The notes below the pieces were generated by a model. The model did no database searches. It was not told the DNA's origin and was given only the letters and a program-made list of their open reading frames with translations. A program made the translations under genes and the position numbers. From a virus (lineage: Duplodnaviria; Caudoviricetes), in IMG/VR virus record IMGVR_UViG_3300020045_008062, positions 1-53,196 of that record: DNA of 53,196 nucleotides; one strand, given 5' to 3'. This document shows positions 1 through 53,196 of this stretch, piece by piece; position 1 is the first letter of the stretch; each line of letters starts with the position of its first letter.

Positions 1-17
1 CCGTTACCAGTAATATT
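1..17 (+). repeat. Partial attC-like site (R' end only; window starts here)
   Basis: CC-GTTACCAGTAATATT; reverse complement matches AATACTACTGGTAAC at 265-279 (14/15). Confidence 0.8.
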
Positions 18-249
18 ACACCTGACAATGTGCATATTTACCATCTTTTAAATTTGAACACATTGTTGAAGATAATTCCCAAATTCTTTCTAAAGCGTAA
101 AAGTCTTTGTGTGTAATCCCATTATTATTGTTGTACTCCATCATTTCGTAGTACTTTTTTTCAACTTCTTTTTGAAATTCAAATACTCTTTCATTTTTTG
201 TGCCTTCTAATTGGAAGAACTCTACTGCAATTTGTTTTAGTGTTGCCAT
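16..249 (-). CDS. Cassette 1 hypothetical protein (77 aa)
   Basis: ORF fills the space between GTTA (3) and TAAC (279). Confidence 0.75.
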   Translation of the reverse strand: MATLKQIAVEFFQLEGTKNERVFEFQKEVEKKYYEMMEYNNNNGITHKDFYALERIWELSSTMCSNLKDGKYAHCQV

Positions 250-272
250 TACGTTTTTGTTTAAAATACTAC

Positions 273-403
273 TGGTAACATATGCTACACAATAGCTGGG
301 TTAATTGTTTAATTTAAAGTCTGTTTTGCACTTGAATAATTTGTCTTAAATCGATGTATGGTTTTGTGCTTAACCAGCCATCGTGTAGCATCAGCCGTTA
401 GTA
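273..403 (+). repeat. attC-like site 1
   Basis: TGGTAAC...ATGCTACACAATAGCTGG / CCAGCCATCGTGTAGCAT...GTTAGTA. Confidence 0.85.
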
Positions 404-418
404 GCAAGACTACGTTTG

Positions 419-703
419 CTACTCAAAACTACTATTGTCCACACGTTTTGAAAGTCTATCTAACTTAAACGCTTTAGTTTCATCTACTCTTGATTGTACC
501 GATGGAAACATATATTTTATTTGTTCAATCATAATTTCAACATCTGCTATTTCTCCGCACATATCAACAAATCTTTCTTCTGTTGAGTTTCTTACGAATT
601 TTCTAACGGCTAATGCTAATTCCGTAGCTTCTTCTTGAGCCATTTCTAATTGAGCTGTTTGCCCCCATTTTTCAATTGTTTTTTTGTAAATTTCGTTTGA
701 CAT
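419..703 (-). CDS. Cassette 2 MazG-like nucleotide pyrophosphohydrolase
   Basis: QEEATEL...GEIADV acidic helical motifs of the MazG-like/all-alpha NTP-PPase superfamily. Confidence 0.75.
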   Translation of the reverse strand: MSNEIYKKTIEKWGQTAQLEMAQEEATELALAVRKFVRNSTEERFVDMCGEIADVEIMIEQIKYMFPSVQSRVDETKAFKLDRLSKRVDNSSFE

Positions 704-750
704 TTTATTTAGTTTTTATAATTAATATTCGTTTTAATGAGCCGTCCAGC

Positions 751-829
751 TACTAACACTCGCTACAAGCTAGTAGCCGAAAGTGTGTTGGCGCATAGGC
801 TACCATCTTGTAGCGAGATAACGTTATGT
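751..829 (+). repeat. attC-like site 2 (short type)
   Basis: TACTAAC-A-CTCGCTACAAG / CTTGTAGCGAG-ATAAC-GTTATGT, perfect 11-bp arm. Confidence 0.85.
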
Positions 830-847
830 GATATACTACTATTGTGG

Positions 848-1105
848 TTAAAATGGCAAACCATCGTCGATATATTTATTTTCACAACTATAAGGTATTT
901 TCATAATTAATGGCGGTTCTGGAGAAAATGAATTTGGTATATTAATTCCTTTTTGTTCCATTGTGTAAATCAAAATAGAAATATAATGATTCAATCCTCT
1001 ATCATCATAATCATCTTCGTATTGTTGTCTTGATATTTCTAAACATTCAGCTTCATTATAACAATCTCTTCCTAATACGCCTCCACAAGCTCTACAGTTT
1101 GCCAT
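848..1105 (-). CDS. Cassette 3 hypothetical protein, N-terminal Cys cluster
   Basis: CRAC...C...C; ORF fits cassette. Confidence 0.7.
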   Translation of the reverse strand: MANCRACGGVLGRDCYNEAECLEISRQQYEDDYDDRGLNHYISILIYTMEQKGINIPNSFSPEPPLIMKIPYSCENKYIDDGLPF

Positions 1106-1139
1106 TTCAATAATATTTAGTTGTTAATAATCGTACATC

Positions 1140-1274
1140 ACATAACACACGTTTGCAGTTATGGCTTATATCGTTTTTTCCTGCGGAAAAACCTCTGATA
1201 ATCTTAATTTGGGTTTGTGCTTGTTTATTTTAGTCCTGAATCCCGCCACATCTGCAAGCGTGGGAACGTTAGCA
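1140..1274 (+). repeat. attC-like site 3
   Basis: ACATAAC-A-CACGTTTGCAG / CTGCAAGCGTG-GGAAC-GTTAGCA. Confidence 0.85.
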
Positions 1275-1279
1275 AACAG

Positions 1280-1474
1280 CTACACAACATTGTCGTTAAG
1301 AAGCTTAATTGCTTTTTGAAGTTCAATTATTTCTAATTCAATATTTGCTAAATCATTTTGCAGAAATTCGTGGTCGCAAACCATTTCGCAGTTATCAAAA
1401 TCGGAATCTTTTTTATCCCATTCTTTACCTAATAATTCAATTCTTTTTTCAAGAACTTTAATTGCTTGTTTCAT
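1280..1474 (-). CDS. Cassette 4 small coiled-coil hypothetical protein
   Basis: 64-aa ORF fits cassette. Confidence 0.7.
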   Translation of the reverse strand: MKQAIKVLEKRIELLGKEWDKKDSDFDNCEMVCDHEFLQNDLANIELEIIELQKAIKLLNDNVV

Positions 1475-1498
1475 ATTTTATCTGAATAAAAGCCGATT

Positions 1499-1634
1499 TG
1501 CTAACAGTGGTTTTGCGAGATTTTCGGCACTTGGTTTAATTTAATTTTTAGTTTGTACTTGTTGTTTTTTTTGCTCAACTGAAAGATTACGCATCCTTAA
1601 CCGAAAATCCTCGCAAAGCCACGAACCGTTAGGG
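1499..1634 (+). repeat. attC-like site 4
   Basis: TGCTAAC-A-GTGGTTTTGCGAGATTTTCGG / CCGAAAATCCTCGCAAAGCCAC-GAACC-GTTAGGG. Confidence 0.85.
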
Positions 1635-1642
1635 ATAACCGC

Positions 1643-2044
1643 CTATTGGAGTCCAAAAACAGAATCTAAAAAGACAGTATCATTAGTGAATGAATCACAT
1701 TCTTTTGGCATTGGTTCTTGGTATTCAAAAGTTTCAGGATGTTTTTCTAAAGCACTTGATTTTTCAATTGAAAACGGATACATTATTTTATCAAATTTTG
1801 TGCATTTAAAAGCACTAACTTGTTTTGTTGAATATTGAGTTTCCCCATTTTCATAATCATAGCCAATTTCAAAATCAACATCAATATCTTCTCTTTCTAA
1901 AAACACACATCCATTAGTACACGCTCTGAAATTTAATGGATTGCAATTGCATTTTTCTTCGTGATTTGCCATTGCGTGTTTTCGCTTCAATTCCTTTTTA
2001 CAAAAATCACATTTGTAAATTGTAACATTTTCTATTGTTTTCAT
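1643..2044 (-). CDS. Cassette 5 Cys-rich, putative zinc-finger protein
   Basis: YKCDFCKK...HEEKC motif plus further Cys. Confidence 0.7.
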   Translation of the reverse strand: MKTIENVTIYKCDFCKKELKRKHAMANHEEKCNCNPLNFRACTNGCVFLEREDIDVDFEIGYDYENGETQYSTKQVSAFKCTKFDKIMYPFSIEKSSALEKHPETFEYQEPMPKECDSFTNDTVFLDSVFGLQ

Positions 2045-2073
2045 AAATTATAGATTAGTAATTCGTGGTATAT

Positions 2074-2207
2074 CCCTAACACGTGCTTGTATCAATGGCT
2101 TGCATCGTTTTTTCCTTCGGAAAAACCGCTGGCGGGATTAATCAGGATTTATCGGTTGTGCTTGGGTCTTGAATCTTAGCCACTGAGACAAGCACACAAC
2201 GTTATAA
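2074..2207 (+). repeat. attC-like site 5
   Basis: CCCTAAC-AC-GTGCTTGT / ACAAGCAC-ACAAC-GTTATAA. Confidence 0.85.
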
Positions 2208-2208
2208 C

Positions 2209-2415
2209 TCATTTTGCAGAACGTTTGCTAGTAACTAGTTCGGTTTTGTGAATTACTATATCTTCATTTTCAAAAGGAGTTTCAAAATTCCATCTATCGA
2301 GAGTAAATTTTGAAACTTTCAAAGTTTTTCCCCAAGTCGTGCAAAGTATTGTTAAATCCCCGTAATGAAAATGAAACCCACTTGCCTTAAATTCTAAATG
2401 ATATATCTTTCTCAT
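2209..2415 (-). CDS. Cassette 6 ORF3, hypothetical
   Basis: 68-aa ORF, stop 8 nt from GTTA. Confidence 0.7.
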   Translation of the reverse strand: MRKIYHLEFKASGFHFHYGDLTILCTTWGKTLKVSKFTLDRWNFETPFENEDIVIHKTELVTSKRSAK

Positions 2416-2573
2416 TACTTGTGATTTTTAATTAATTCAATTGCATTATTAATTTCTTTTAACTTTTGATTTCTTTGTGCAAAATCATCAGGATAATTTT
2501 CGGGTTTCCATCCTTTTAAACAATCTTCTAAAAGTTTCTTTTCTCTCTCAAGAATAAATATTGCTTCGTTCAT
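2415..2573 (-). CDS. Cassette 6 ORF2, hypothetical (52 aa, absent from ORF track)
   Basis: MNEAIFILEREKKLLEDCLKGWKPENYPDDFAQRNQKLKEINNAIELIKNHK; TAATG overlap with the next ORF. Confidence 0.65.
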   Translation of the reverse strand: MNEAIFILEREKKLLEDCLKGWKPENYPDDFAQRNQKLKEINNAIELIKNHK

Positions 2574-2579
2574 GGCTTA

Positions 2580-2792
2580 TTAAGTTAAGGCGATTATTTG
2601 ACCATTAATCCATTGGCTATAAGTTTTTGGGTTTCCAAATTTTTCTACATTATCCGAATTTCTTTTATGATATTCAGTATATCCTTTTTTTGAATCTTGT
2701 ATAAATTCCTCGAAAGATTTATAAGCATTTCTACAAGCTATAAATAGACATTTTAAATCATCTTGGTCGATAGTAAAATCAATATTTCCCAT
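2580..2792 (-). CDS. Cassette 6 ORF1, hypothetical
   Basis: 70-aa ORF downstream of an internal promoter. Confidence 0.7.
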   Translation of the reverse strand: MGNIDFTIDQDDLKCLFIACRNAYKSFEEFIQDSKKGYTEYHKRNSDNVEKFGNPKTYSQWINGQIIALT

Positions 2793-2841
2793 AATACAAA
2801 TTGTTTAGAAATTGCCGTGAATATCACTTCCTTATTTCTTT

Positions 2842-2891
2842 TACAAATATAGTAATTAATATTTGTATAAACCTAATTAAATTACAAATAT
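2842..2891 (-). promoter_or_regulatory. Cassette-internal Bacteroidota-type promoter with operator-like repeats
   Basis: TATATTTG on minus strand (2844-2851); TACAAATAT/ATATTTGTA/TACAAATAT at 2842, 2859, 2883. Confidence 0.6.
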
Positions 2892-2927
2892 TATTAATAA
2901 AAATTGTAAATAAATAAAAAAAACGAG

Positions 2928-3058
2928 TGATAACAACGGTTTGGAGCGATTGCAAGATTAGGATTTACTCGAATTATTAGAAAGAAAATTAAAAACTGTC
3001 TTGTACTTTTAAAAATAGTCTTGAATTTTTGCAACCGCACCAAGCCGATACGTTACCA
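2928..3058 (+). repeat. attC-like site 6
   Basis: TGATAAC-AA-CGGTTTGG / CCAAGCCG-ATAC-GTTACCA. Confidence 0.8.
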
Positions 3059-3064
3059 GTAATG

Positions 3065-3391
3065 CTACGAAACCTGCTCAACAACCTTTATTTTTTGTCT
3101 TTTTGTCTCCCAATCTCTCATTGCTATTATTTTAGCATCAAAATATACTCTCTGTTTATTATTACAGACCACATAAGCTATGTAATGTGTTTTTTCTGCG
3201 TAGTAATCTTTTAAAGCTATTACAGGAAAATCTTTTTCACTTCCTTCAGTGCCTTCCATCACAACTACGTGATACATATAATAATTTCTATTTCTTGACC
3301 TGAAATGAAATACTTTCAATAAATCTCCAACTAATATTTGTTTTCCAGATTGGTCAAAATATGTGTTGTTTTTTCTTTCTTCTAATGTCAT
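3065..3391 (-). CDS. Cassette 7 protein with YopX-like motif
   Basis: DQSGKQILVGDLL resembles the DxxGkeIyeGDil motif of phage YopX proteins. Confidence 0.55.
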   Translation of the reverse strand: MTLEERKNNTYFDQSGKQILVGDLLKVFHFRSRNRNYYMYHVVVMEGTEGSEKDFPVIALKDYYAEKTHYIAYVVCNNKQRVYFDAKIIAMRDWETKRQKIKVVEQVS

Positions 3392-3427
3392 TTTTTAAGT
3401 TTTAAATTTGTAAATAAAAAGCACTAC

Positions 3428-3504
3428 TGGTAACAATCACTATACTGCAGTTGCCGAATATACTAAACCGCATAGGCAACCGCAGTATAGTTTTAACGTT
3501 ATCA
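3428..3504 (+). repeat. attC-like site 7 (short type)
   Basis: TGGTAAC...ACTATACTGC / GCAGTATAGT...GTTATCA. Confidence 0.85.
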
Positions 3505-3510
3505 GGAATA

Positions 3511-3699
3511 CTACGATTTGTTTTCATAGATGATTTTTTCAATATCATTGGCGATTTTATCCATCATTTCAGATATTTTCAACTCATACCTTTGTTCCTC
3601 TTTATTTTCATTTATTGAACTCCAATCAAAATATTGATTTGCATATTCTTTTAATTTGTTTTTGTAATCTATTAGTTTTTGTTCTTGAATACTATTCAT
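3511..3699 (-). CDS. Cassette 8 hypothetical protein
   Basis: 62-aa ORF fits cassette. Confidence 0.7.
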   Translation of the reverse strand: MNSIQEQKLIDYKNKLKEYANQYFDWSSINENKEEQRYELKISEMMDKIANDIEKIIYENKS

Positions 3700-3729
3700 A
3701 ATATATTTAGTTTTAAATTGCCGTACTCC

Positions 3730-3865
3730 TGATAACAGTTGCTATAAGAGATTTTCGGCATAGTGATTAATCGTTTTAATTGTGTGTATTTGCGATGATT
3801 TGGCAAAGTGGAAAGATGGTTTTATACTCATCCGAAAATCCTCTTATAGCAACAATCCGTTATAG
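3730..3865 (+). repeat. attC-like site 8
   Basis: TGATAAC-A-GTTGCTATAAGAGATTTTCGG / CCGAAAATCCTCTTATAGCAAC-AATCC-GTTATAG; 21-bp arm with one extra C. Confidence 0.88.
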
Positions 3866-3894
3866 CTTATGGCTCGATTTCGGTTTTTAAGAAC

Positions 3895-4206
3895 TTAATC
3901 AAAAATATTAGCTACGTGACTTCTATATTCCTCTTCTTTAAAAATGAATAAATAAGTACTGTAAAATGGTAGCCAAATATGAAGTGTGCTTCCTGCTAAA
4001 TAGTTATAAATAGGATTTTTAAAATGGTCTATAGGGTAATCAAAATCATTTTCCCATTGCATAATTGAATAGAATATATGTTTAAATATTCCTAACAATC
4101 CAATCATTGCAATCATATAGGAAATTATATTTAACGGAAACCAAACCATTAAAGCTGTAAATAAGAAAATTATAGGGCTAACAATTATTTTAAATATTAT
4201 TTTCAT
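3895..4206 (-). CDS. Cassette 9 small membrane protein
   Basis: Long hydrophobic N-terminal segments. Confidence 0.7.
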   Translation of the reverse strand: MKIIFKIIVSPIIFLFTALMVWFPLNIISYMIAMIGLLGIFKHIFYSIMQWENDFDYPIDHFKNPIYNYLAGSTLHIWLPFYSTYLFIFKEEEYRSHVANIFD

Positions 4207-4238
4207 AACACGTTTAGTTTTTAAAAACCCACCACAAG

Positions 4239-4372
4239 CTATAACAGCAATTTGTGGTAATTCGGGTATTAGTTATTAATTTATTTTTGGTCTTGCATTT
4301 GTAAAATCTGTCTTGCATCGGTACTTTAGGATTTATTTACCCCAAACTACCACAAGTTGCAGGACGTTATCA
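4239..4372 (+). repeat. attC-like site 9
   Basis: CTATAAC-A-GCAATTTGTGGTA / TACCACAAGTTGC-AGGAC-GTTATCA. Confidence 0.85.
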
Positions 4373-4726
4373 GCAACCGCCCACAATCATCGTAAAGTGT
4401 TCACGACAAACATAAGCTGTTAAGTTATGGCGCATTCTATCGGGGTCGTCCGATGGAATTTCTTCTCCTAATTTATTGGTTGCATCTTTTCCGCAAACTG
4501 AACAAATCTCTCCTTCACAACTTCCAGAAATAAAATAAGGTGCAAATAATTCTAATGCTTTTGGTCTTTTGAAAGTATCAAATCCAATAGTTTTTGTTTG
4601 TGCATTTTGAGGAAAATAAGTATAATAATTTCTTTGAGGTATCCATCCATATTCGTCCATAAGTCCATTAGCTATGTCAAAATAATTTCCAAAAACCTCT
4701 TGTAATTTTTCTTTAGGTGGTAACAT
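4370..4726 (-). CDS. Cassette 10 protein with C-terminal CxxC...CxxH zinc-finger-like motif
   Basis: CSVC...CREH; stop codon lies inside the R' core. Confidence 0.7.
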   Translation of the reverse strand: MLPPKEKLQEVFGNYFDIANGLMDEYGWIPQRNYYTYFPQNAQTKTIGFDTFKRPKALELFAPYFISGSCEGEICSVCGKDATNKLGEEIPSDDPDRMRHNLTAYVCREHFTMIVGGC

Positions 4727-4761
4727 ATAAATAGTTTTAAAATTAGTATTAAGTGGTATGC

Positions 4762-4852
4762 TGATAACAAATGATAATGGCTATTTGCACAACCATTTTC
4801 CTCCGAAACAACTTCTGTAGTGGCAAACAGCCACTATCATCCACCGTTAGTG
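4762..4852 (+). repeat. attC-like site 10 (distal end of array)
   Basis: TGATAAC...TGATAATGGCT / AGCCACTATCA...GTTAGTG. Confidence 0.85.
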
Positions 4853-4855
4853 GCA

Positions 4856-4926
4856 ATATTCAAATGTACAAAACATACGTTTACAAATTACAAACAAAAG
4901 TAATTTATAGTAATTATAAATAGTGT
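4856..4926 (-). promoter_or_regulatory. Phage promoter pointing into the cassette array, with upstream palindromic box
   Basis: TACATTTG -7 element (4861-4868); 32 bp identical to 44205-44236; AATTTATAGTAATTATAAATA at 4902-4922. Confidence 0.7.
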
Positions 4927-5648
4927 TATTGAATATTTCCAAAATGACAAAATACATTTTCATAAATTCCTAATTCCTTGTTAATTGAATTACGCAAACG
5001 AATACGATCTTCTAAACTGTATTCGTTGTCAGATTTTTTTAATCTAATTGCGATTTTAGAAGCTAATTTATAAATCTGATGGTATTGTTCATTTGTGATG
5101 TGTAATTGCGGTGTTCGCCTCAAATCGGCTATAAAAGTCATATATTCCTGTCCATACTCTTTTACAATTCCTTCACGCAATAAACCATCATCATTTTGAA
5201 AGTGGTTTGATTGCGCGCTTTGTCTGTGGATGTTGTGTAAATTGAATCGGATTGTTTGATTGCCTCCACGCGCAAATACGTGACCTGCATCATACTTTTT
5301 TGCTGGATAATCACGAGCCAAACAATTCAAACCTTTATCAATTAATCTAACGATTAGATTTACTTTTACCTGAAGTTCTTTTGACCAATTTTTAGCAGCT
5401 TCTTTATCTTTTTTATGCTGAACTTTGTCAAATGGCTTAATTACTGGGCTTTCTTTTTCAACGGCTTTTTTTGTGATTCGCATTGCTTTATTCATATATA
5501 ATTGGCCTGCCTCGGTATCCATTAACCATTTTGGAAAACAACACATTTTCCCTAAACCAAACTTTCTGTTTTCTATTTTTACCATTTTGCCGCATCCTTC
5601 AAATCCGAATGCGGCATCTTGACCATTACATATTTTCTCTTTGATCAT
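4926..5648 (-). CDS. ninG: NinG/Rap-like recombination endonuclease
   Basis: VRLID...C...DAGH...IRFNLHNIHRQ...N motif of lambda NinG family. Confidence 0.75.
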   Translation of the reverse strand: MIKEKICNGQDAAFGFEGCGKMVKIENRKFGLGKMCCFPKWLMDTEAGQLYMNKAMRITKKAVEKESPVIKPFDKVQHKKDKEAAKNWSKELQVKVNLIVRLIDKGLNCLARDYPAKKYDAGHVFARGGNQTIRFNLHNIHRQSAQSNHFQNDDGLLREGIVKEYGQEYMTFIADLRRTPQLHITNEQYHQIYKLASKIAIRLKKSDNEYSLEDRIRLRNSINKELGIYENVFCHFGNIQ

Positions 5649-6658
5649 TAGAAAAGTTCTTTAGGTTTCTCAACAAAATTAAAACGTTTGGTAACTTCTT
5701 TCATATTCAAAATTGCCTGTTTGAAATAGCTGTCTTTTAATTCAATTCCAATTGCCTTTCTTCCCATAGATACAGGACTGAAAACCTCGCTTCCAACTCC
5801 CATAAAAGGAGTTAAAACAACCTCTCCAGGGTTTGAATACAACTCAATTAAACGATCAATTACATCTAACTGTAAAGGATGCACGTGTTTCTCGTCGTCC
5901 TCTTCTTTTGAATCCCTAAAAGGCAAAACATTATCAATTCTGATATCATCCCAAACAGATGAGGCATAACGCTGCCAAACATAATGATTCAATTTAGTAA
6001 TTTTATCATCTTCATTTATGTTATTTAGATGATCCCACAATTGAACTTCATTTAAATTTGAATTATTGGCATTATTCCAAGCTCTTAGAATATTTGGCAA
6101 TATTGGAATTTCACCAGCGTAATGATTCATTCCGTATTTGTGAGTTACAGGAACTTCATTTTCTCCTTTTTTAGTGAAAATTAAAACATAGTCCGGCATT
6201 GCTGTAAAACATTTTGTAGAATCTTCAACAATGAATTTATGCATTAAAGATTGAACCATTGTACGCATACGCACTTTTAAAGGTTCTTTCCAAATTGTAA
6301 TTCTGTTACGATATTCAAAACCATACTTTTCATGAATCTTAATAATTTCATGAGGGAAATCCCAAAGACGGCATGTATTATCAAAAACATCTGTCGCATG
6401 AACTGCAGTTATTCGCCCTAGCTTTGTTACTCTTGAAATTTCTTTTACCAAATAATCGTATTGTTCTAAAAATTGTTCTTTGGTTTCACAATTTGAAAAG
6501 TCATTTTCTGAACTTGAATAATTATAAAGTCCGGCGAAAGGCGGAGAATATACCGATAAATCAATGCTTTTATCTTCTAGTGTAGGCAAAACCAACATGC
6601 AATCTGAATTATAAATTGCGTAATTTTCTGTAATAACTTGATCTTTTACTTTGCTCAT
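5648..6658 (-). CDS. DNA N4-cytosine/N6-adenine methyltransferase (beta class)
   Basis: SPPF catalytic motif precedes TPFMGVGS SAM-binding motif. Confidence 0.9.
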   Translation of the reverse strand: MSKVKDQVITENYAIYNSDCMLVLPTLEDKSIDLSVYSPPFAGLYNYSSSENDFSNCETKEQFLEQYDYLVKEISRVTKLGRITAVHATDVFDNTCRLWDFPHEIIKIHEKYGFEYRNRITIWKEPLKVRMRTMVQSLMHKFIVEDSTKCFTAMPDYVLIFTKKGENEVPVTHKYGMNHYAGEIPILPNILRAWNNANNSNLNEVQLWDHLNNINEDDKITKLNHYVWQRYASSVWDDIRIDNVLPFRDSKEEDDEKHVHPLQLDVIDRLIELYSNPGEVVLTPFMGVGSEVFSPVSMGRKAIGIELKDSYFKQAILNMKEVTKRFNFVEKPKELF

Positions 6659-6661: not shown

Positions 6662-8029
6662 TTAAAATTTTGGTTTAATAATATCTTTGTTAAATTCTTT
6701 TTTGATGTGTGTGAATGACTTATTTACATTTTCGGTTAGTCGCCTATGTAATTCAATTGCTTTTTTTGTTTTTTGCTCCAAAGCTTCTATAACTCTGGTT
6801 TGTCCATCCGAAATAACCATATCAATAACAACATCATTTTTCTGTCCAAATCGCCAAAAACGTCTTATTGCTTGATAATATTGCTCATAACTCCAAGTAG
6901 GGAAAAATACAGAATGATTGCAATGCTGCCAATTCAAACCCATTGAAGTCATTTTTGCTTTAGTTATTAATCTTTCAATTTCTCCATTGGCAAAAGCTAA
7001 AAGAATTTCTTCTTTTTTATCAATGGATTGGGATCCAATTATTTCAACCGCTTTTGAATCTGAATGTTTTAAAATAGTGCTTTCGTTATTAGTATTACAC
7101 CAATAAACAGAAGTTTTCCCATCTGCTAAATTTACTGCTTTTTCACAACGTTTTTCTTCTGTCTGTTTTTGCTCGTGCCTTACTTCTGTCATTGATTTGG
7201 CAATTGGCGTAAACATTTGAATTTGGCCGCTAATATCAATAAGACTTTGATTTTCTACAATATGCCTGTTTGTAATTAATTTTGGTAAAACATATCTATC
7301 ATTTGAAAATCCTAAATCAGAAGGCATTTTTGCCATAATTGACCACTGATTAACCCACGCAAAGAAATCATTTTCAGCATGTGGCTTTAAATAGAATTTT
7401 TCGCCAATATTTCTATTTGTTGAATCTACTGAATTTTGATTGTTTTTGAAAAACTTTCCTAACATGTCCATGTAACCCATGTAACCTAAAAACTCTGATG
7501 TAGTTCCTAATTCAATAAAATCATTTGGCGAAGGAGTTGCAGTTGATCCAAAACGATATTTTATTTTCTTTACGAAAGCCGTAATTTGACTTTTAATTTT
7601 TCCATCAAAATTTTTAAGAATAGAACTTTCATCTAAAATAACACATTCAAAATCTTTCGGATCCAAATAATGTAATCTTTCATAATTACAAATTACAATT
7701 TTTTTTGTGAATTTACCATCTTTGGTAATTTCGATATCATCTGTAATATTTCGCTCTAAAGCTTCTTTTATGAATTGAAAGCCAACGGCCAAAGGAGTTA
7801 ATATTAAAACTCTTTTGTTTGTGTGTTGTATTACATTCCTGGCTATTGACAATTGAATTAATGTTTTTCCAAGTCCCGTATCTAAAAAGTTGGCAATCCT
7901 TCCTTTTTCAATTGATTTTTCAATAACATAAGATTGAAAATCAAAAGCGCAATCAGGGATAAAATTTGCCTTGAATCCAAAATTACCTATTGAATGGCGT
8001 TTTGATTCTAAAAATTGGTTATAATCCAT
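6662..8029 (-). CDS. SF2/SNF2-related helicase
   Basis: DTGLGKT, LDESS, TATP, GLNWQ, QAIRRFWRFGQ motifs. Confidence 0.88.
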   Translation of the reverse strand: MDYNQFLESKRHSIGNFGFKANFIPDCAFDFQSYVIEKSIEKGRIANFLDTGLGKTLIQLSIARNVIQHTNKRVLILTPLAVGFQFIKEALERNITDDIEITKDGKFTKKIVICNYERLHYLDPKDFECVILDESSILKNFDGKIKSQITAFVKKIKYRFGSTATPSPNDFIELGTTSEFLGYMGYMDMLGKFFKNNQNSVDSTNRNIGEKFYLKPHAENDFFAWVNQWSIMAKMPSDLGFSNDRYVLPKLITNRHIVENQSLIDISGQIQMFTPIAKSMTEVRHEQKQTEEKRCEKAVNLADGKTSVYWCNTNNESTILKHSDSKAVEIIGSQSIDKKEEILLAFANGEIERLITKAKMTSMGLNWQHCNHSVFFPTWSYEQYYQAIRRFWRFGQKNDVVIDMVISDGQTRVIEALEQKTKKAIELHRRLTENVNKSFTHIKKEFNKDIIKPKF

Positions 8030-12335: not shown

Positions 12336-14072
12336 TTATTTCAATGATGCAACAAATTTATTTATAAATTCAGTTTTCATAACATCAGTACTTCCAGTTA
12401 TCGCATTTGAAAGCTCTGCTTTGCTCTGAATCAATTCAAAATTTTGTTCGTCAATTGTGTTCTTCCCAAGAAAATAAGTCGCTGTAATCGGTTCTTTTTT
12501 CTTGAAATCAAAAACTCTATCTTCACATTGGAAGCTGTCCGCAGCTGTCCAAGGGTATTCAACAAAAGCAACTTCTTTAGCAGCTGAAAAATTATGTCCA
12601 ACACCTCCCGCCTCAGTATTACAAATTAATAACGGGTAATCACTTGGTATATAATCGTGATCTTTATCCTGATGATGTTCTAATTTAATTTTACATTTTT
12701 TACACTGCTGAAACTTGGTTTTGGCATCTTCTTTTTGGTGTTCGTCTTGCCTGCCTGTAATCATTAAAGCATTTGGAAAGTTTTTTTTAAGTTCGTCAAC
12801 AATAACATGCATTACGCAAAATATTACTATTTTTTGTCCATTATCGATTAAATCCTGGATATAGTAAACAACCTCATTAATTTTTCCCAATGCTGAAATT
12901 CGTTTCAATTCCTGCATCTTTACAAGTGCCTGTCCTTTTAATTTGTCTGATATTTGTTCCTCAGTGCTTCCATTTTCTTTAAGGAAATTTAAAAAGTCAT
13001 TTTTAGCAGAATTATAATTATCACGTGTTGTAATGTCGCATAAAATAGTTTGCCTTTGTTTTGGAGGCAAATCTTTTACTACTTCTTTTCTTTCACGTCT
13101 GAAATAGCAAATTTCATTTAATTTTGAATTCAATTCTTTTAAGTTTGCCGCTCCTGATCCTCCCTCACAATATCTTCCTTTAAATACTTTTGGGCCGCCA
13201 AATTCTTTTAATCTTCCCATAATTGCCAATTGAGAATATAAATCTAATGGCTTGTTTTTTACAGGAGTTCCGGATAACAAGATTATCCATATTTTACGCA
13301 AACATATTTGTAATGTTATTTTTGTTTGCTGCGTTTCAGAATCTTTTAATTTATGACTTTCATCTACTATTACAGAATTAAAAAGATGAATATTAGACTT
13401 CATTCTAATATCGTTAGAATCTTTCATCTTATGTTTTGGAGGGTAATATTCAACAAAATTCTTTTTTAAAGATTGAAAGTTGCAAATAACAACATCATAC
13501 ATATCCATTGTAATAAAATGATGCCAACGGTCTTTTGTAGTATCATCCAAAACCAAAACCCGCTTATTGCTCCAAATTTTCCATTCATCCTGCCAGTTTA
13601 ATTTTAATGGTGCTGGACAAATTACCAAACATGGAAAAGTAGGTTCTTTTTTTATTTCCTGAGCAATACAAAGTGTAATAATTGTTTGAATACTTTTACC
13701 TAATCTTTGTTCGTCACCGTTTATGTATCGTTTTAATTCAAGTCCTCTGGCAATTCCTTTACGCTGATAATCACGTAAACTTCCCTGTTTTAAAGGATAT
13801 TCGTAAATCAATTCCGGAAGCGGTGCAATAGGTTTAATTTTATCATCTGACTGCTTTGAAATGTCAATCCATTCAATAGGATTTGCGGGTTTTGCTTTGT
13901 TTTTTAATTCAATCAAATGATTACGATAACCGACACTTACAACGAAAGCATTTTTAACATAACACCATTTTACCCCTGGAATCTTTTTAATTTCAACAGC
14001 ATTGTTATTACGGAACCTGTCAAATGGTATTTTAACTTGCAACTCATGTGAATGTTCGATTACCTGCATCAT
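12336..14072 (-). CDS. SNF2-family helicase (HARP/SMARCAL1-like)
   Basis: DEQRLGKS, ICPAPLKLNW, VDESH, LSGTP, QCEDR motifs. Confidence 0.88.
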   Translation of the reverse strand: MMQVIEHSHELQVKIPFDRFRNNNAVEIKKIPGVKWCYVKNAFVVSVGYRNHLIELKNKAKPANPIEWIDISKQSDDKIKPIAPLPELIYEYPLKQGSLRDYQRKGIARGLELKRYINGDEQRLGKSIQTIITLCIAQEIKKEPTFPCLVICPAPLKLNWQDEWKIWSNKRVLVLDDTTKDRWHHFITMDMYDVVICNFQSLKKNFVEYYPPKHKMKDSNDIRMKSNIHLFNSVIVDESHKLKDSETQQTKITLQICLRKIWIILLSGTPVKNKPLDLYSQLAIMGRLKEFGGPKVFKGRYCEGGSGAANLKELNSKLNEICYFRRERKEVVKDLPPKQRQTILCDITTRDNYNSAKNDFLNFLKENGSTEEQISDKLKGQALVKMQELKRISALGKINEVVYYIQDLIDNGQKIVIFCVMHVIVDELKKNFPNALMITGRQDEHQKEDAKTKFQQCKKCKIKLEHHQDKDHDYIPSDYPLLICNTEAGGVGHNFSAAKEVAFVEYPWTAADSFQCEDRVFDFKKKEPITATYFLGKNTIDEQNFELIQSKAELSNAITGSTDVMKTEFINKFVASLK

Positions 14073-14098
14073 TTTGTTTAAATTTTAAAAGTTGTTAA

Positions 14099-14632
14099 TT
14101 AAATTCCTTCTTTTTCCTCACCGTTAACCTCAAACAAATCTAGCTGAGCTTTGGCCGCTTGTTTTCCGCTCATGTAATGTTGAACCTCTTCTTTCAATGT
14201 TTCAATTGCCATTTCAAGTGCTGAAGCAAATTTGTAATCCGAGTCAAATTTAATTAATGGTGTTGACCATCCAATTTCCTCAAAATTAGCCAACTGTCGG
14301 GATCCTGAAATTACAACTCCTTCACCTGATTTTGACATTGCAAAACTGCTTACATTGAATTTTAAAAAATCTTCTGAAACAACTGAATCACGGTCACCAA
14401 TGTAATCAGAAATATTGTCGATACATTTTGAAATTAATGATTCATCCAAAATCTGCTCTGAAATGAAACAGAAATGAGGGATTAAGGCACGAAAAGCGTT
14501 TCGTAGGTCATAATGTATTGGAGCATCACTATTTGTCTTAATAGTGTTTTTAATTTCACCATCTGTACGCTCAAAGGAATAATCTAGGAATAGACTAGAT
14601 TTAATACTTGCATTTTTTACTGCTAAACTCAT
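14099..14632 (-). CDS. Hypothetical phage protein
   Basis: 177-aa ORF. Confidence 0.6.
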   Translation of the reverse strand: MSLAVKNASIKSSLFLDYSFERTDGEIKNTIKTNSDAPIHYDLRNAFRALIPHFCFISEQILDESLISKCIDNISDYIGDRDSVVSEDFLKFNVSSFAMSKSGEGVVISGSRQLANFEEIGWSTPLIKFDSDYKFASALEMAIETLKEEVQHYMSGKQAAKAQLDLFEVNGEEKEGI

Positions 14633-14659
14633 ATATTAATTATTTATTGATTACTGATT

Positions 14660-14767
14660 AAAAATAGAAATTCCCTAAAGGCCTATTGTCGGATAGGTGA
14701 TCTTTAGGGAACTCTAATATGTCTTAAGTTGTGATGAATCCGACAATAAACCACTTAGACAAATATA
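14660..14767 (-). promoter_or_regulatory. Promoter plus leader attenuator-like element B
   Basis: TATATTTG (14760-14767); stem TTCCCTAAAG/CTTTAGGGAA; loop TATTGTCGGAT complementary to ATCCGACAATA (14738). Confidence 0.65.
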
Positions 14768-14773
14768 AAAAAA

Positions 14774-15145
14774 TTACTCGAATTGTAAACCTATTTGACT
14801 TTTATTTTTGGTTGCGTTTGCACTTTGTTTGGCTTTAAACTCTTTGGAAATCCAAGAACGAATTGGCCGACCGTGGCAAATAGGATTTTTTGAATAAACC
14901 CAATCTTTTTTAAAAATCATACCATCCTTAGAAAGTTTGTTAAATATTGCGCCAAAAATTCTACACTCATGGGGTGGGTCGTTTCCTTTGGCGTAATAAG
15001 CTTCTTTTAAATCTTCTGATGTGAACGCTTTAAATTGATTTTTAACCCATTCATAAGCAAATAAAAGGCAGTCATTGTAATAGTTTTGATTATTACGTTC
15101 AACTGAATCCAAGGCTTCACGCATTTTGTCGAATTGGTTTTTCAT
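14774..15145 (-). CDS. Hypothetical protein
   Basis: 123-aa ORF in operon. Confidence 0.6.
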   Translation of the reverse strand: MKNQFDKMREALDSVERNNQNYYNDCLLFAYEWVKNQFKAFTSEDLKEAYYAKGNDPPHECRIFGAIFNKLSKDGMIFKKDWVYSKNPICHGRPIRSWISKEFKAKQSANATKNKSQIGLQFE

Positions 15146-15147
15146 AA

Positions 15148-15444
15148 TTATTCAACTTTAAATGTTACTTCTTCACCATGTAGATACAAATTTCCTTTGT
15201 TGTCACATTTACCTCTACCTGATTTAGATTTATAAGAACTACAAAGTGATTTTTTACAATCACTTTTTTGTACGCAATCATAAATACCACACCAAATATA
15301 TTCTGATGTTCCGTTATCTGGAATTGCTTCTAAAACTGTTACTTCTGAAAGTTCGTCAATTTTACCGTCATGTAGTATGTCTTCAATTGTTTCGCAATTT
15401 GTAGAGTCTACACTTCTGAAATATAATTTAGTTTCTGTTTTCAT
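15148..15444 (-). CDS. Cys-rich hypothetical protein
   Basis: 98-aa ORF. Confidence 0.6.
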   Translation of the reverse strand: MKTETKLYFRSVDSTNCETIEDILHDGKIDELSEVTVLEAIPDNGTSEYIWCGIYDCVQKSDCKKSLCSSYKSKSGRGKCDNKGNLYLHGEEVTFKVE

Positions 15445-15884
15445 AAATATTGTTTATTATTTTCTAATTCAACTTCAATTTCCTGCATAATTGCCAAATC
15501 AGAAGGTTGTGGTAAATAAATACCAGCTTCTTTTGATGAATAATCCCTAAATCGATCAATTGCCAAAGTCATTTCATCTTTTGTCAGTTCCGCACAACTT
15601 CGTAATTCAATTCTTATTTCACCTGTTTTACGATTAATAAATTCAAATTCGAAAATGTCATGATTAACTAACTTTTTGAAAAACTCAATTTTAATATAAT
15701 CTCGTTTCTCTCCAAATTCTAAGGCGAACCAGCCTAAAATAAGATGTAAATATTTCAATTGCGGATATGTTTTTGATTTTCGCTTCTCAGTCAGTTCAAA
15801 AACCTTTTCATGCTTTATCAGAAACTTAAGTTTCTCAATTGCCCGTTGTTGATCTATGAGTTTTGATCCGTTGTAAATTGCCAT
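15441..15884 (-). CDS. NinB/Orf-like recombination accessory protein
   Basis: KT..QLKYLH...RSCAELTKDEMTLAID...GIYLPQP. Confidence 0.6.
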   Translation of the reverse strand: MAIYNGSKLIDQQRAIEKLKFLIKHEKVFELTEKRKSKTYPQLKYLHLILGWFALEFGEKRDYIKIEFFKKLVNHDIFEFEFINRKTGEIRIELRSCAELTKDEMTLAIDRFRDYSSKEAGIYLPQPSDLAIMQEIEVELENNKQYL

Positions 15885-16198
15885 AATATTTTTTTAGAAT
15901 TATAAATATGGTTTGCGTGTTTAATAGCGGCATTATAACAATTTATTCTTTCATCATATTCTGATTCAGAAATGTATTTTTTAGGAAATTCACTTCCTAA
16001 TTGTTTTTCTTTAATTATATAATAAAACTCATTACAAGAAGTATCTATCAAAATATATATTCCAGATAAATCAAAAAAATCTATTATTCTTGTTTGTTGA
16101 AAAGATTCAGGTAATTGTAAAAATTCATCCCAATTTGAATATAATTTTTTTTCAGGATGATTTTTTGCATCATCCAAACATTTTCCCGTAAGCTCCAT
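15854..16198 (-). CDS. Hypothetical protein
   Basis: 114-aa ORF. Confidence 0.55.
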   Translation of the reverse strand: MELTGKCLDDAKNHPEKKLYSNWDEFLQLPESFQQTRIIDFFDLSGIYILIDTSCNEFYYIIKEKQLGSEFPKKYISESEYDERINCYNAAIKHANHIYNSKKILWQFTTDQNS

Positions 16199-16199
16199 A

Positions 16200-16586: not shown

Positions 16587-16703
16587 ATCCCGATTTCTTT
16601 AATGAGTTTATCAATCATTTCTTTGTTTGACTTGCAAAAAGTATAATCGTTTTTTGTGGTCAAACTCAGCATTAAAGTATAATTATGCTGTTTTACTATT
16701 TGG

Positions 16704-16976: not shown

Positions 16977-16978
16977 AA

Positions 16979-52339: not shown

Positions 52340-53140
52340 TTATATTGCGAATTGTAAGGTTTGTAACTTTTTACTTGATGTATGGGTGTATATTTCGGTT
52401 GTTTTTCGGGAACTATGCCCTAATAAATCGCCTATCAATTTTAGATCAGTTCCTTTCTCGTATAATCCTGTTGCTGCACTATGTCGCAAAGTATGCATGT
52501 GATATTGCTTACCGAGATATTTTTTTACGATTTGGTTACAGCTTCCGGATGAATATTGAAATCCAAACTGGCCATTGAAAAGGTATTCTTTAGGCAAATA
52601 TTCGACATAATAGAGCCTGATTATTTCTCTTGTTGTTGGTGTAAGCGGTACTATTCTATCTTTTTTACCTTTGGCCGCACGAATATTTATCTGCATCATC
52701 GGGCTGTTTATATCTGACAATTTTAAATTTAAAACTTCTGAAACTCTCAATCCAACGGATGAAGTCAATGCAATTATTGCTTTGTGTTTTTTATTTTCGA
52801 TTTTATCTATCATCGAAACTAAATCAGTTACATCTATTACCAGCGGGATTTTCTTTTCTTTTTTGGCATACTGGATGTATTCAAATTTTCGGTTTTGCTT
52901 AATGGTTAATACATAAAATTTCTTTATTGCCGAATGCATTGCGTTTTGAGAATTTACTTCTTTGGCGTTTAGCAGATAGTTCTTGATTTCGTCAGCCGAT
53001 ATGTGTTTTGGGCTGTCTTTTTCTTTGAAGTAATTCAAGAATAGTTTTATTTGGCTACTATAGTTTTTTATTGTCTCTTTTGAGAAGTGAATGAAGTTCA
53101 AATCTCGCTCATAGTTTTGGATGTAGTTTGCGGAATTCAT
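52340..53140 (-). CDS. Tyrosine recombinase, integron-integrase-like
   Basis: SAM-like N-terminus (SKETIKNY); GLRVSE (R), KGKKDR (K), HTLRHS.AT (HxxR), LLGH, TTEIYTH (Y); no arm-binding domain. Confidence 0.92.
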   Translation of the reverse strand: MNSANYIQNYERDLNFIHFSKETIKNYSSQIKLFLNYFKEKDSPKHISADEIKNYLLNAKEVNSQNAMHSAIKKFYVLTIKQNRKFEYIQYAKKEKKIPLVIDVTDLVSMIDKIENKKHKAIIALTSSVGLRVSEVLNLKLSDINSPMMQINIRAAKGKKDRIVPLTPTTREIIRLYYVEYLPKEYLFNGQFGFQYSSGSCNQIVKKYLGKQYHMHTLRHSAATGLYEKGTDLKLIGDLLGHSSRKTTEIYTHTSSKKLQTLQFAI

Positions 53141-53196
53141 AGGCTTAGTTGTTGTGGTTGTTGGTTTTGTGGGTGGTTGAATAAATGTAGACGTTA
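53141..53196 (+). other. Candidate attI-like primary recombination site
   Basis: Directly upstream of the integrase start; ends AC-GTTA like the attC R' cores but has no hairpin; preceded by GGTTG-rich tract. Confidence 0.55.

What the first reader, a model, noticed from the sequence alone, without database searches (positions are those of the whole stretch)
265..4852. Non-canonical attC architecture with a conserved asymmetric bulge and position-11 C/A mismatch
Seen: instead of the canonical 5/6-nt spacers and L boxes, the inner stem starts 1-4 nt after TAAC but ends 4-6 nt before GTTA (1 vs 5 in sites 2, 3, 4, 8, 9). In seven cassettes (1, 2, 3, 6, 7, 8, 9) the outer repeat has a C 11 nt back from the end of TAAC opposite an A (e.g. 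GTAC-TCCTGATAAC vs GTTATCAGGA-ATAC), which is a G:T wobble on the bottom strand only. Cassettes 4, 5 and 10 have a one-base bulge near that position instead. Cores are GTTA+variable rather than GTTRRRY. Inference: structure-based, strand-selective recognition by a distinct recombinase class; standard attC models may miss these sites.
Basis: partly seen in the sequence, partly recalled or inferred. Interest (0 to 1): 0.72.

Follow-up and report, generated by a model that had tools for sequence, protein, structure and literature searches.

The report
Non-canonical recombination hairpins in phage cassettes
This phage keeps about a dozen small genes as swappable cassettes separated by DNA hairpins whose odd but strictly conserved shape (a one-sided four-base bulge and a fixed T-G mispair) goes with a small Xer-like recombinase encoded beside the array, not with a classical integron integrase.

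Summary
Window 276-4849 has 10 hairpin sites that separate 12 small minus-strand ORFs in a 53-kb siphovirus-like phage record.

On the gene-sense (minus) strand each site reads T-N6-TAAC-G, a 3-4 nt pyrimidine bulge, the inner stem and loop, then T-GTTA-N6-G.

- **Conservation.** In 172 sites from about 50 related viral contigs, the T 11 nt from the core is invariant. It faces G, C or T, and A in only 1 of 121 cassettes. The bulge asymmetry holds in 165 of 172.
- **Second box.** The inner stem carries a mirrored copy of the motif (T-N6-WARC), which looks like an L box.
- **Cassette signature.** The outer arms pair across the ORF (8.5 of 10 positions), not across the hairpin (4.7, the same as random pairs).
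- **Platform.** A hairpin-less TAAC site lies 54-57 nt before a 266-aa Xer-like recombinase that lacks the IntI-specific segment.

My reading is an integron-like gene-capture system with a different enzyme, different site rules and inverted gene orientation. Recombination itself is inferred, not shown.

This scan has noted the same kind of system on other DNA. I found no paper describing it. The closest in print is Qi et al. 2023, on attC clusters in phages.

The parts
1..18 (-). Right core (GTTA at 3-6) and outer arm of a site whose hairpin lies off the record. The arm GTTACCAGTAAT pairs with the left arm of site 1 across ORF 16-249.
   Evidence: There are 10 matches, then A opposite C at position 11, then 3 matches.
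16..249 (-). Cassette ORF, 77 aa, no family.
276..400 (-). Hairpin site 1, long class, 125 nt from TAAC to GTTA.
   Evidence: It is 83% identical to a site in L011.
419..703 (-). Cassette ORF, 94 aa, MazG-like NTP pyrophosphohydrolase.
   Evidence: phrog_2245, E = 7.3e-26.
754..826 (-). Hairpin site 2, short class, 73 nt.
848..1105 (-). Cassette ORF, 85 aa, no family.
1143..1271 (-). Hairpin site 3, long class, with an inner mini-hairpin.
1280..1474 (-). Cassette ORF, 64 aa, no family.
1502..1631 (-). Hairpin site 4, long class.
1643..2044 (-). Cassette ORF, 133 aa, no family.
2077..2204 (-). Hairpin site 5, long class.
   Evidence: One public contig is identical over 2077-2204 and unlike the window beyond it.
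2209..2792 (-). Three-ORF cassette (2209-2415, 2415-2573, 2580-2792) with an AT-rich palindromic stretch at 2840-2915 upstream of it.
   Evidence: ORF 2580-2792 matches phrog_20997 (unknown function).
2931..3055 (-). Hairpin site 6, long class, the most diverged stem.
   Evidence: 104 bits.
3065..3391 (-). Cassette ORF, 108 aa, no family.
3431..3501 (-). Hairpin site 7, short class, 71 nt.
3511..3699 (-). Cassette ORF, 62 aa, no family.
3733..3862 (-). Hairpin site 8, long class.
3895..4206 (-). Cassette ORF, 103 aa, no family.
4242..4369 (-). Hairpin site 9, long class.
   Evidence: Public contigs stop matching at 4368 and 4369.
4370..4726 (-). Cassette ORF, 118 aa, no family.
4765..4849 (-). 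Hairpin site 10, medium class, 85 nt. It is the distal end of the array and abuts the backbone (NinG gene 4926-5648).
53141..53196 (-). Hairpin-less, attI-like site. TAACG lies at the very end of the record, 56 nt before the integrase start codon.
   Evidence: The same layout is found in 53 of 63 related loci.
52340..53140 (-). Xer-like tyrosine recombinase, 266 aa, with a complete catalytic set.

Best explanation
The ten repeats are the recombination sites of a phage-borne, integron-like gene-cassette array served by the phage's own small Xer-like tyrosine recombinase. They are not canonical attC sites.

Site anatomy. On the gene-sense (window minus) strand each site can fold into two stacked helices.
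- The outer helix is the R box: 5' T-N6-TAAC pairs with GTTA-N6-G 3'.
- The inner helix is the L box, a mirrored and degenerate copy: 3'-arm T-N6-WARC pairs with 5'-arm GYTW-N6-G.
- Each box is about 11 bp long and ends in a T.G wobble.
- Between the boxes lie a G.T closing pair, 3 bp of stem, and a 3-4 nt pyrimidine bulge found only on the 5' arm.

Proposed mechanism (inferred). Two recombinase monomers bind the two boxes of the folded strand. [quoted passage not shown] The junction is then resolved by replication, as in integrons. The bulge and the wobbles would mark which strand is used and in which orientation. They would stand in for the extrahelical bases that IntI reads with a domain this enzyme lacks.

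Shown: the anatomy, its conservation, the cassette signature, the link to the recombinase, and the turnover of array content.
Inferred: folding as single-stranded DNA, the cleavage point, and the roles of the bulge and the wobbles.
For: (1) Cassette signature. In 121 cassettes the arms flanking the ORF pair at 8.51 of 10 positions, and 62 of 121 are perfect. The two arms of one hairpin pair at 4.74, the same as random pairs (4.75).

(2) Position 11. It is G.T in 88, C.T in 21, T.T in 11 and Watson-Crick in 1 of 121 cassettes. Positions 5-9 are Watson-Crick in 106-114 of 121. The T is present in 172 of 172 sites and in 165 of 180 in the independent scan.

(3) Inner stem, commonest registration (n = 76). 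The T at stem position 14 is present in 74 of 76, facing G in 55, C in 11, T in 4 and A in 4. GCTW/WARC occupies stem positions 4-7. The bulge reads G plus pyrimidines.

(4) Covariation. 94.9% of cells are paired against 62.6% in shuffles. The covariation score is 0.758 against 0.156, reached by 0 of 500 shuffles. Slid controls give 27-52%.

(5) The sense strand folds better in 10 of 10 window sites and in 144 of 172 overall.

(6) Platform geometry. A TAAC lies 54-57 nt before the integrase start in 53 of 63 loci. Its arm pairs with the last hairpin's 3' arm perfectly in 25 of 45 loci and at 9 or more positions in 30 of 45. Position 11 there is G.T in 33 of 45. The distal end of the array is a hairpin that abuts a backbone gene.

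(7) All 170 model hits in relatives lie on the integrase strand. The longest ORF is on that strand in 138 of 146 cassettes. In L011 an inverted sub-array carries inverted ORFs.

(8) Turnover. Among phages with integrases 85-94% identical, no array ORF of the window has a homologue in the other arrays.

(9) The enzyme has invariant R132, K157, H216, R219, H242 and Y251.

(10) In cultured Polaribacter phages Freya_1 and Freya_10 (integrase 34% identical to the window's), backbones that are 100% identical differ by a 4.9-kb block. The block is inserted exactly at an AAC beside the integrase gene.
Against: - No experiment or read-level joint shows recombination in this phage.
- Public contigs that share hairpins diverge at either core, not at one only. 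Comparison of homology therefore does not fix the crossover point. Homologous exchange between similar hairpins could add to the shuffling.
- Most site counts come from alignments fitted to a model trained on this family.
- The inner stem also has a C.A mismatch on the sense strand (43 of 76), so not every irregularity favours that strand.
- 26 of 172 sites fold better on the other strand.
- The hairpins are also present in the mRNA, so part of the conservation could serve RNA.
- 14 of 63 integrase loci had no model hit upstream.
Confidence: 0.78

Rival explanations
1. The sites are recombined as ordinary double-stranded core sites, as with Xer/dif or the pdif modules of plasmids. The ability to form a hairpin would be incidental or would serve something else.
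For: In duplex form the 5' half of each site reads as an 11-bp arm (T-N6-TAAC), 8 bp, then an inverted 11-bp arm (GYTW-N6-G). That is the usual arm-spacer-arm layout of a tyrosine-recombinase site. The enzyme is Xer-like throughout. The partner site beside the integrase gene has no hairpin.
Against: A duplex site needs no complementary copy 70-130 nt away, yet the two halves covary at 12 of 12 inner pairs. Positions 11 and 14 avoid Watson-Crick partners (1 of 121 and 4 of 76). That can only matter if the arms meet. The 3' half would have a spacer of only 4 bp.
Confidence: 0.1
2. The hairpins act mainly in the RNA of a long phage transcript, as processing, stabilising or attenuating stem-loops between small genes. 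The recombinase would only integrate the phage.
For: The better-folding strand is the mRNA-sense strand. The conserved non-canonical pairs would be G-U pairs in RNA. A T-rich tract follows the 3' arm.
Against: An RNA role does not explain why the arms are complementary across each ORF rather than across each hairpin. It also does not explain the hairpin-less TAAC site at a fixed 54-57 nt from the integrase start, the complete turnover of ORFs between close relatives, or the insertion at an AAC in the Freya isolates. No Rfam family matches.
Confidence: 0.07
3. The array is a canonical integron fragment (a cluster of attC sites without integrase) picked up from a bacterial host and served by a host IntI, like the clusters reported in phages by Qi et al. 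2023.
For: AAC/GTT cores, imperfect palindromes of 52-206 nt, and the G after AAC that Bouvier et al. 2009 report as conserved on the attC bottom strand (passages read). Qi et al. showed that some phage attC sites work with IntI1 (section 3.4 read).
Against: There is no IntI in the record. The arrays are tied to a non-IntI recombinase at a fixed geometry in dozens of phages. The extra bases lie on the opposite arm to canonical extrahelical bases. The genes are in the opposite orientation. The model finds nothing in Polaribacter phage P12002L, one of the phages of Qi et al..
Confidence: 0.04

Closest known systems
Classical integrons (IntI, attI, attC cassettes; for example the Vibrio cholerae chromosomal integron, VchIntIA, PDB 2a3v)
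   Same: The recombinase gene has a simple site at its 5' end, followed by an array of one-gene cassettes. Each cassette is bounded by an imperfect palindrome with AAC/GTT cores, and a G follows the AAC. Sites in the array are hybrids, with arms complementary across the cassette. Structure is conserved while sequence is free, and loop length varies.
   Different: The enzyme lacks the IntI-specific segment: 42 aa where VchIntIA has 90. There are no single extrahelical bases on the 3' arm. Instead there is a 3-4 nt bulge on the 5' arm and a T.G wobble at position 11 of each box. The outer helix is 14 bp instead of 7. The cores are not GTTRRRY. The ORFs lie on the strand that folds best and point towards the integrase.
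Clusters of attC sites in phages (Qi et al. 2023, PMC9892861; abstract and section 3.4 read)
   Same: Phage genomes carry arrays of hairpin-bounded cassettes without an IntI. One of their examples is a Polaribacter phage.
   Different: Their sites were called with standard attC tools and recombined by IntI1. They describe no phage-encoded partner recombinase. My model finds no site in P12002L. Their supplementary list of phages could not be opened, so overlap with this lineage cannot be excluded.
Xer/dif systems, and integration of folded single-stranded phage DNA by XerCD (CTX phage). The second is recalled, not checked here.
   Same: The recombinase is closest to XerA, XerC and XerD in sequence and length. 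The binding arms are about 11 bp. If the recalled case is right, it is a precedent for a Xer enzyme using a folded single strand.
   Different: There is one enzyme rather than a XerC/XerD pair, and it is encoded beside a cassette array. The sites are 70-130-nt hairpins rather than 28-bp duplex sites. Nothing links it to chromosome dimer resolution.
Integrons with inverted integrase genes (Treponema and others). Recalled, not checked here.
   Same: The integrase and the cassette genes run in the same direction.
   Different: Here the 5' end of the integrase gene, not its 3' end, faces the array, and it is the cassette genes that are inverted relative to site polarity. The enzyme is not an IntI.

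Membership tests
Integron | IntI-type integrase carrying the additional domain between the catalytic lysine and the HxxR motif | tested here: not met
   TIGR02249 scores 124 bits against a cutoff of 265, and PRK15417 scores 68 against 435. The alignment to VchIntIA breaks into query 15-168 and 211-255, leaving 42 aa where IntIA has 90. The alignment to XerA is continuous.
Integron | A simple attI-type site next to the 5' end of the integrase gene, where the array begins | tested here: met
   A hairpin-less TAAC lies 54-57 nt before the start codon in 53 of 63 loci, and its arm is complementary to the last cassette's other end. Function as an insertion site is inferred.
Integron | Cassettes bounded by imperfect palindromes with AAC/GTT cores, with hybrid sites in arrays | tested here: met
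   TAACG is present in 176 of 198 sites and TGTTA in 186 of 198. Arms pair across the cassette at 8.51 of 10 positions, against 4.74 within a site.
Integron | Core consensus RYYYAAC / GTTRRRY | tested here: not met
   Position 4 is always A. Position 5 is T in 94 and G in 62 of 172, and positions 6-10 are free.
Integron | Two or three extrahelical bases on the R''-L'' arm and a two-sided unpaired central spacer (Bouvier et al. 2009; passages read) | tested here: not met
   The extra 2-4 nt lie on the arm that carries TAACG, which is the R'-L' arm of the strand that looks like a bottom strand. This holds in 165 of 172 sites. The other side has 0-2 unpaired nt in most sites.
Integron | Cassette genes read away from attI, on the strand opposite to the recombined one | tested here: not met
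   The longest ORF is on the integrase and TAACG strand in 138 of 146 cassettes and reads towards the integrase gene.
Integron | Recombination of the folded single bottom strand | not testable with these tools
   There are only indirect signs: covariation, avoidance of Watson-Crick pairs at positions 11 and 14, and the strand bias of folding energy.
Xer recombinases (XerA/XerC/XerD) | Sequence membership at the curated thresholds | tested here: not met
   The best model is XerA_Arch at 164.5 bits against a cutoff of 220. XerC scores 145 against 335 and XerD 135 against 330. The protein is Xer-like but is not a member of any curated Xer equivalog.
Xer recombinases (XerA/XerC/XerD) | Acts on a roughly 28-bp duplex dif site with two 11-bp arms and a 6-8-bp centre | tested here: inconclusive
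   The 5' half of each site has this layout in duplex form, but it is tied to a covarying distal copy.
Cluster of attC sites lacking integrase (CALIN) | Two or more sites called by the standard attC covariance model, with no IntI nearby | not testable with these tools
   IntegronFinder and HattCI are not on hand. There is no IntI in the record.

The most novel reading that the evidence does not exclude
A minimal Xer-type recombinase, without the domain thought necessary for integron chemistry, performs integron-style capture of single-stranded hairpin cassettes. It reads a different structural code: a T.G wobble exactly 11 bp from the cleavage core in each of two mirrored boxes, plus a one-sided pyrimidine bulge. 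If so, the integron principle either arose more than once or predates IntI. It would also mean phages of Bacteroidota run their own gene-capture platforms that current integron finders do not see.
Probability: 0.45. Interest if true: 0.88.

Novelty: new variant of a known kind. Interest (0 to 1): 0.78.

Why it matters
Integrons are defined in practice by IntI and by the canonical attC model, and they are reported as rare in Bacteroidetes (IntegronFinder 2.0 paper, passages read).

Here the same logic of platform, insertion site and hairpin-bounded cassettes runs on another enzyme and another structural code, inside phage genomes. At least 49 of 63 related viral loci carry arrays.

The site rules worked out here give a precise and testable hypothesis for how a simple Xer-like enzyme could pick one strand and one orientation:
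- two mirrored 11-bp boxes, each ending in a T.G wobble;
- a 3-4 nt bulge on the 5' arm;
- a G.T closing pair.

They also give a search model for finding such arrays. The cargo is mostly unknown small phage proteins, a natural place to look for host-takeover and counter-defence genes.

Tried and rejected
- **Rfam.** The gathering threshold and E <= 1 on positions 1-5400 gave only a tRNA and a chance miRNA-like hit.
- **Shared cassettes.** I hoped they would fix the polarity. blastn and blastp between arrays found shared hairpins, arms and leaders but no shared cassette ORF. Polarity therefore rests on the geometry of the array ends.
- **Pattern scan.** The IMG/VR scan with TAACGNNNNNATTTAYTCAAC gave 52 stretches. 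The 46 new ones had no hairpin sites and served only as a negative control.
- **Metagenome scan.** It returned only the two contigs already held.
- **Genome scan.** It gave one MAG contig with an array and one distant Flavobacterium integrase without one.
- **Cultured relatives.** The model finds no site in the parts I fetched of Freya_10 (1-6500) and Ingeline_1 (14000-23500), or in the whole of P12002L. The Freya sites are too diverged for it.
- **Public reads.** No run held more than 0.11 of the sampled words. Only short Logan contigs were laid. Many listed joints have sides under 30 nt and are not used. The near-absence of cover over the backbone (4801-6000) in two runs is no evidence of anything. 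No habitat is claimed.
- **Paper search.** I read the section instead.
- **Not attempted.** Structure prediction, complex prediction and the large profile search. None would have changed the verdict.

Full report
**What the window is.** The window is a whole IMG/VR virus record of 53,196 bp, classed linear, with a CheckV estimate of 100% complete.
- All sizeable ORFs are on the minus strand.
- They include large terminase, SPP1-type portal, major capsid protein, tape-measure protein, two SNF2-type helicases, a DNA methylase and NinG.
- The nearest cultured phage by terminase is Cellulophaga phage Nekkels_1, at 52% identity. The host is therefore probably a member of Bacteroidota.
- At the right end lies a 266-aa tyrosine recombinase gene (52340-53140, minus strand).

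**The observation.** Between 276 and 4849 there are ten imperfect hairpins of 71-130 nt that begin with TAAC and end with GTTA on the + strand.
- They separate twelve small minus-strand ORFs.
- A strict scan finds none elsewhere in the window. The covariance model finds only these ten.
On the + strand the inner stem starts 1 nt after TAAC and ends 5 nt before GTTA in sites 2, 3, 4, 8 and 9, with near values in the others.
- The arms that flank each ORF are complementary for 10 bp. They then show C opposite A at position 11 in the cassettes ending at sites 1, 2, 3, 6, 7, 8 and 9, and a one-base shift in those ending at sites 4, 5 and 10 (read).
- The window itself starts inside such an arm (CCGTTACCAGTAAT). 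That arm pairs with the left arm of site 1 across ORF 16-249.

**A larger set.**
- The recombinase has close relatives (85-94% identity) on ten viral contigs and one MAG contig.
- Wherever upstream DNA is present, the same hairpins lie directly upstream of the gene and in its orientation.
- A profile of 19 family members retrieved 284 relatives in IMG/VR, of which the best 80 were kept.
- A covariance model built from 32 sites gave 0 hits in 418,713 nt of unrelated viral DNA.
- It gave 170 hits at E <= 0.01 in 755,766 nt around the new relatives, every one on the integrase strand.
- With the first set this makes 198 sites at E <= 0.001. Of these, 172 have exact TAAC and GTTA at the model positions.

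**Site anatomy, read on the integrase and gene strand (window minus strand).**
- G follows TAAC in 168 of 172 sites, and T precedes GTTA in 171 of 172. These two can close the outer helix as a G.T pair.
- The 5' side then has more unpaired bases than the 3' side: 4 more in 99 sites, 3 more in 49 and 2 more in 17 of 172.
- In the commonest registration (n = 76) the bulge is G followed by four bases that are mostly T or C.
- In the 5' outer arm, the base 11 nt from the C of TAAC is T in 172 of 172 sites, while positions 5-10 are free. In the 3' outer arm, position 11 is G in 127, C in 27, T in 15 and A in 3.
- A scan that does not use this position gives T in 165 of 180.
- The inner stem repeats the pattern in mirror image. 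Stem positions 4-7 read GCTW on the 5' arm and WARC on the 3' arm. At position 5, C faces A in 43 of 76.
- Seven positions further, at stem position 14, the 3' arm has T in 74 of 76. It faces G in 55, C in 11, T in 4 and A in 4.
- The motif T-N6-(T/W)A(A/R)C therefore occurs twice, once on the 5' outer arm and once on the 3' inner arm. Each copy is paired to a strand that puts G opposite the T.
- I read these as R and L boxes of about 11 bp with dyad symmetry. They are separated by 8 nt on one strand and 4 nt on the other.
- The variable stem positions covary. 94.9% of cells are standard pairs against 62.6% in shuffles. The covariation score is 0.758 against 0.156, reached by 0 of 500 shuffles. 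Slid controls give 27-52%. All 12 inner pairs show double changes. That alignment was fitted to the model, so it leans towards the structure.
- Site lengths fall into three classes: about 71-75, 84-92 and 116-133 nt.

**The cassette signature.**
- In 121 pairs of neighbouring sites, the 3' arm of the upstream site and the 5' arm of the downstream site, which are the two arms around one ORF, pair at 8.51 of 10 positions. 62 of 121 are perfect when G.T is counted.
- The two arms of one hairpin pair at 4.74 of 10. Random arm pairs give 4.75.
- This is what exchange within the core produces in integron arrays. An RNA or repeat explanation does not predict it.
- Within this cassette-level helix, position 11 is G.T in 88, C.T in 21, T.T in 11 and Watson-Crick in 1 of 121. 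Positions 5-9 are Watson-Crick in 106-114 of 121.
- Because these two positions lie hundreds of bases apart in duplex DNA, avoidance of a Watson-Crick pair only makes sense if the arms meet in a folded or circularised form.

**Platform and polarity.**
- In 53 of 63 loci with upstream DNA, a TAAC lies 54-57 nt before the integrase start codon. In five more it lies at 46 nt.
- It is followed by a conserved stretch and no hairpin. It is preceded by a variable arm with T at position 11 in 44 of 45 loci.
- That arm pairs with the 3' arm of the last hairpin perfectly in 25 of 45 loci and at 9 or more positions in 30 of 45.
- The window fits this layout. Its last bases, read on the minus strand, are TAACG followed by the conserved stretch and the integrase start.
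- At the far end, the array ends in a hairpin that abuts a backbone gene. In four relatives the same backbone arm is kept there.
- This is the topology of an integron that grows by insertion at a site beside the integrase gene. The window + strand plays the part of the top strand and the minus strand the part of the bottom strand.
- The conserved G after AAC matches what Bouvier et al. 2009 report for the attC bottom strand (passages read).
- The minus strand also folds better: 10 of 10 window sites and 144 of 172 sites overall, by a mean of 1.6 kcal/mol.
- Two things differ from integrons. First, the extra bases lie on the arm with TAACG, the opposite arm to canonical extrahelical bases.
- Second, the genes lie on the folding strand and read towards the integrase. 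The longest ORF is on that strand in 138 of 146 cassettes. The start codon lies a median 31 nt after GTTA, and the stop codon ends a median 13 nt before the end of the next TAAC.
- In L011 an inverted sub-array carries inverted ORFs, so site and gene orientation are coupled.

**The enzyme.**
- Pfam sees a phage-integrase catalytic domain and an N-terminal SAM-like domain.
- The best NCBIfam model is archaeal XerA, at 164.5 bits against a cutoff of 220. The integron-integrase model scores 124 against 265.
- Against solved structures, XerA proteins align end to end. VchIntIA aligns in two pieces (query 15-168 and 211-255), leaving 42 residues where IntIA has 90. The segment specific to integron integrases is therefore absent.
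- R132, K157, H216, R219, H242 and Y251 are invariant in 19 family members.
- The family is large: more than 120 clusters at 54-94% identity, nearly all of 266-268 aa. A few lie on long bacterial contigs, and one is named 'site-specific tyrosine recombinase/integron integrase' by NCBI.

**Turnover.**
- No array ORF of the window has a protein homologue in the arrays of phages whose integrases are 85-94% identical. Those arrays share no cassette ORF with each other either, apart from two contigs of one phage. Hairpins, arms and leaders recur.
- Short public contigs from four runs labelled wastewater cover single hairpins and single cassettes of the window. Several stop matching at a core. One contig ends its match at 4368 and two at 4369. 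One contig is identical over 2077-2204 and unlike the window beyond. One covers 3863-4249 and then differs.
- Contigs and loci diverge at either core, so these comparisons do not locate the crossover.

**Cultured relatives, a side check.**
- In ten Polaribacter phage Freya isolates (integrase 34% identical to the window's), the integrase gene sits at record positions from 50 to 4147.
- Freya_1 and Freya_10 are 100% identical on both sides of a 4.9-kb block. The block is inserted exactly at an AAC, 49 nt before the integrase start.
- Other isolates hold nested parts of the block at 98.7-100% identity. The Danklef phages hold 38% of the queried Freya_10 stretch (1-4200) at 97%.
- The authors of these phages took the integrase as a sign of a temperate lifestyle. 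In the passages I read they do not mention this region.

**What the cassettes encode.**
- One is a MazG-like NTP pyrophosphohydrolase (419-703; phrog_2245, E = 7.3e-26).
- One belongs to a PHROG of unknown function (2580-2792).
- The other ten ORFs match nothing at the thresholds used.

**Comparison and novelty.**
- The system works like an integron. It fails four tested defining features: IntI domain, core consensus, extrahelical-base pattern and gene orientation. I therefore do not file it as an integron.
- Published work closest to it is Qi et al. 2023, who found clusters of canonical attC sites in phages and recombined some with IntI1 (abstract and section 3.4 read). My model finds none of the present sites in their Polaribacter phage P12002L. 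Their supplementary list could not be opened.
- Six full-text searches found no description of hairpin cassette arrays tied to a Xer-like recombinase in phages or Bacteroidota.
- Earlier notes of this scan describe the same kind of system on other genomes. They are unchecked AI notes that agree with my reading and are not independent support.
- What this report adds is the site code: two mirrored 11-bp boxes each ending in a T.G wobble, the 5'-arm bulge and the G.T closing pair. It is tested on 172 sites and 121 cassettes.

**Verdict.** The finding is a new variant of a known kind. Recombination by this enzyme on a folded single strand remains an inference and needs the bench tests listed.

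Noticed in passing
window 1-8 and 53190-53196: Both ends of the record fall on the recombination core. It starts CCGTTACC and ends GACGTTA. The ends overlap by CGTTA but do not join cleanly, with one or two bases too many. Either the assembly broke at the attI-like junction, perhaps because the population is mixed there, or one or more cassettes are missing between the two ends.
   Followed up: partly
L013, L148-L150 (Polaribacter phages Freya_1 and Freya_10): Ten co-isolated Freya phages differ by nested parts of a 4.9-kb block inserted at an AAC 49 nt before their integrase gene. The backbones are 100% identical over the stretches compared. Danklef phages share 38% of the queried Freya_10 stretch (1-4200). 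The T 11 nt from the core is kept in the three Freya arms I read by eye.
   Followed up: partly
L011 4528-9779: One related contig has seven sites and their ORFs in inverted orientation, then the 3' end of the backbone gene in both orientations (about 7355-7704), then six sites in the usual orientation. This is either an inversion between oppositely oriented sites or an assembly artefact.
   Followed up: partly
loops of the long-class sites, e.g. window 310-370, 1175-1240, 4275-4340: The loops are strongly A-rich on the sense strand (A 4652, T 2192, C 1571, G 981 over 134 sites). They often hold TTAAATTAA and ACAAAAC-like words at set places. CAAAAC-like words also occur twice in the stretch between the terminal TAAC and the integrase start. 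They may be accessory binding sites.
   Followed up: partly
window 1160-1190 and 2103-2131: Sites 3 and 5 share a small extra hairpin inside their loops, made of a run of T, CC, a short loop, GG and a run of A.
   Followed up: no
window 2205-2930: This cassette holds three ORFs. Upstream of them is an AT-rich palindromic stretch (2840-2915) that contains TATATTTG on the gene strand. That resembles the -7 promoter motif of Bacteroidetes as I recall it, so the cassette may carry its own promoter or operator.
   Followed up: no
window 42795-42866 (minus strand): A tRNA gene lies among the structural genes (Rfam, 72.8 bits).
   Followed up: no
P0086, P0090: Members of the same 266-268-aa recombinase family lie on bacterial contigs of 452 kb (Flavobacterium sp.) and 273 kb. 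The system, or prophages carrying it, may therefore also sit in chromosomes.
   Followed up: no
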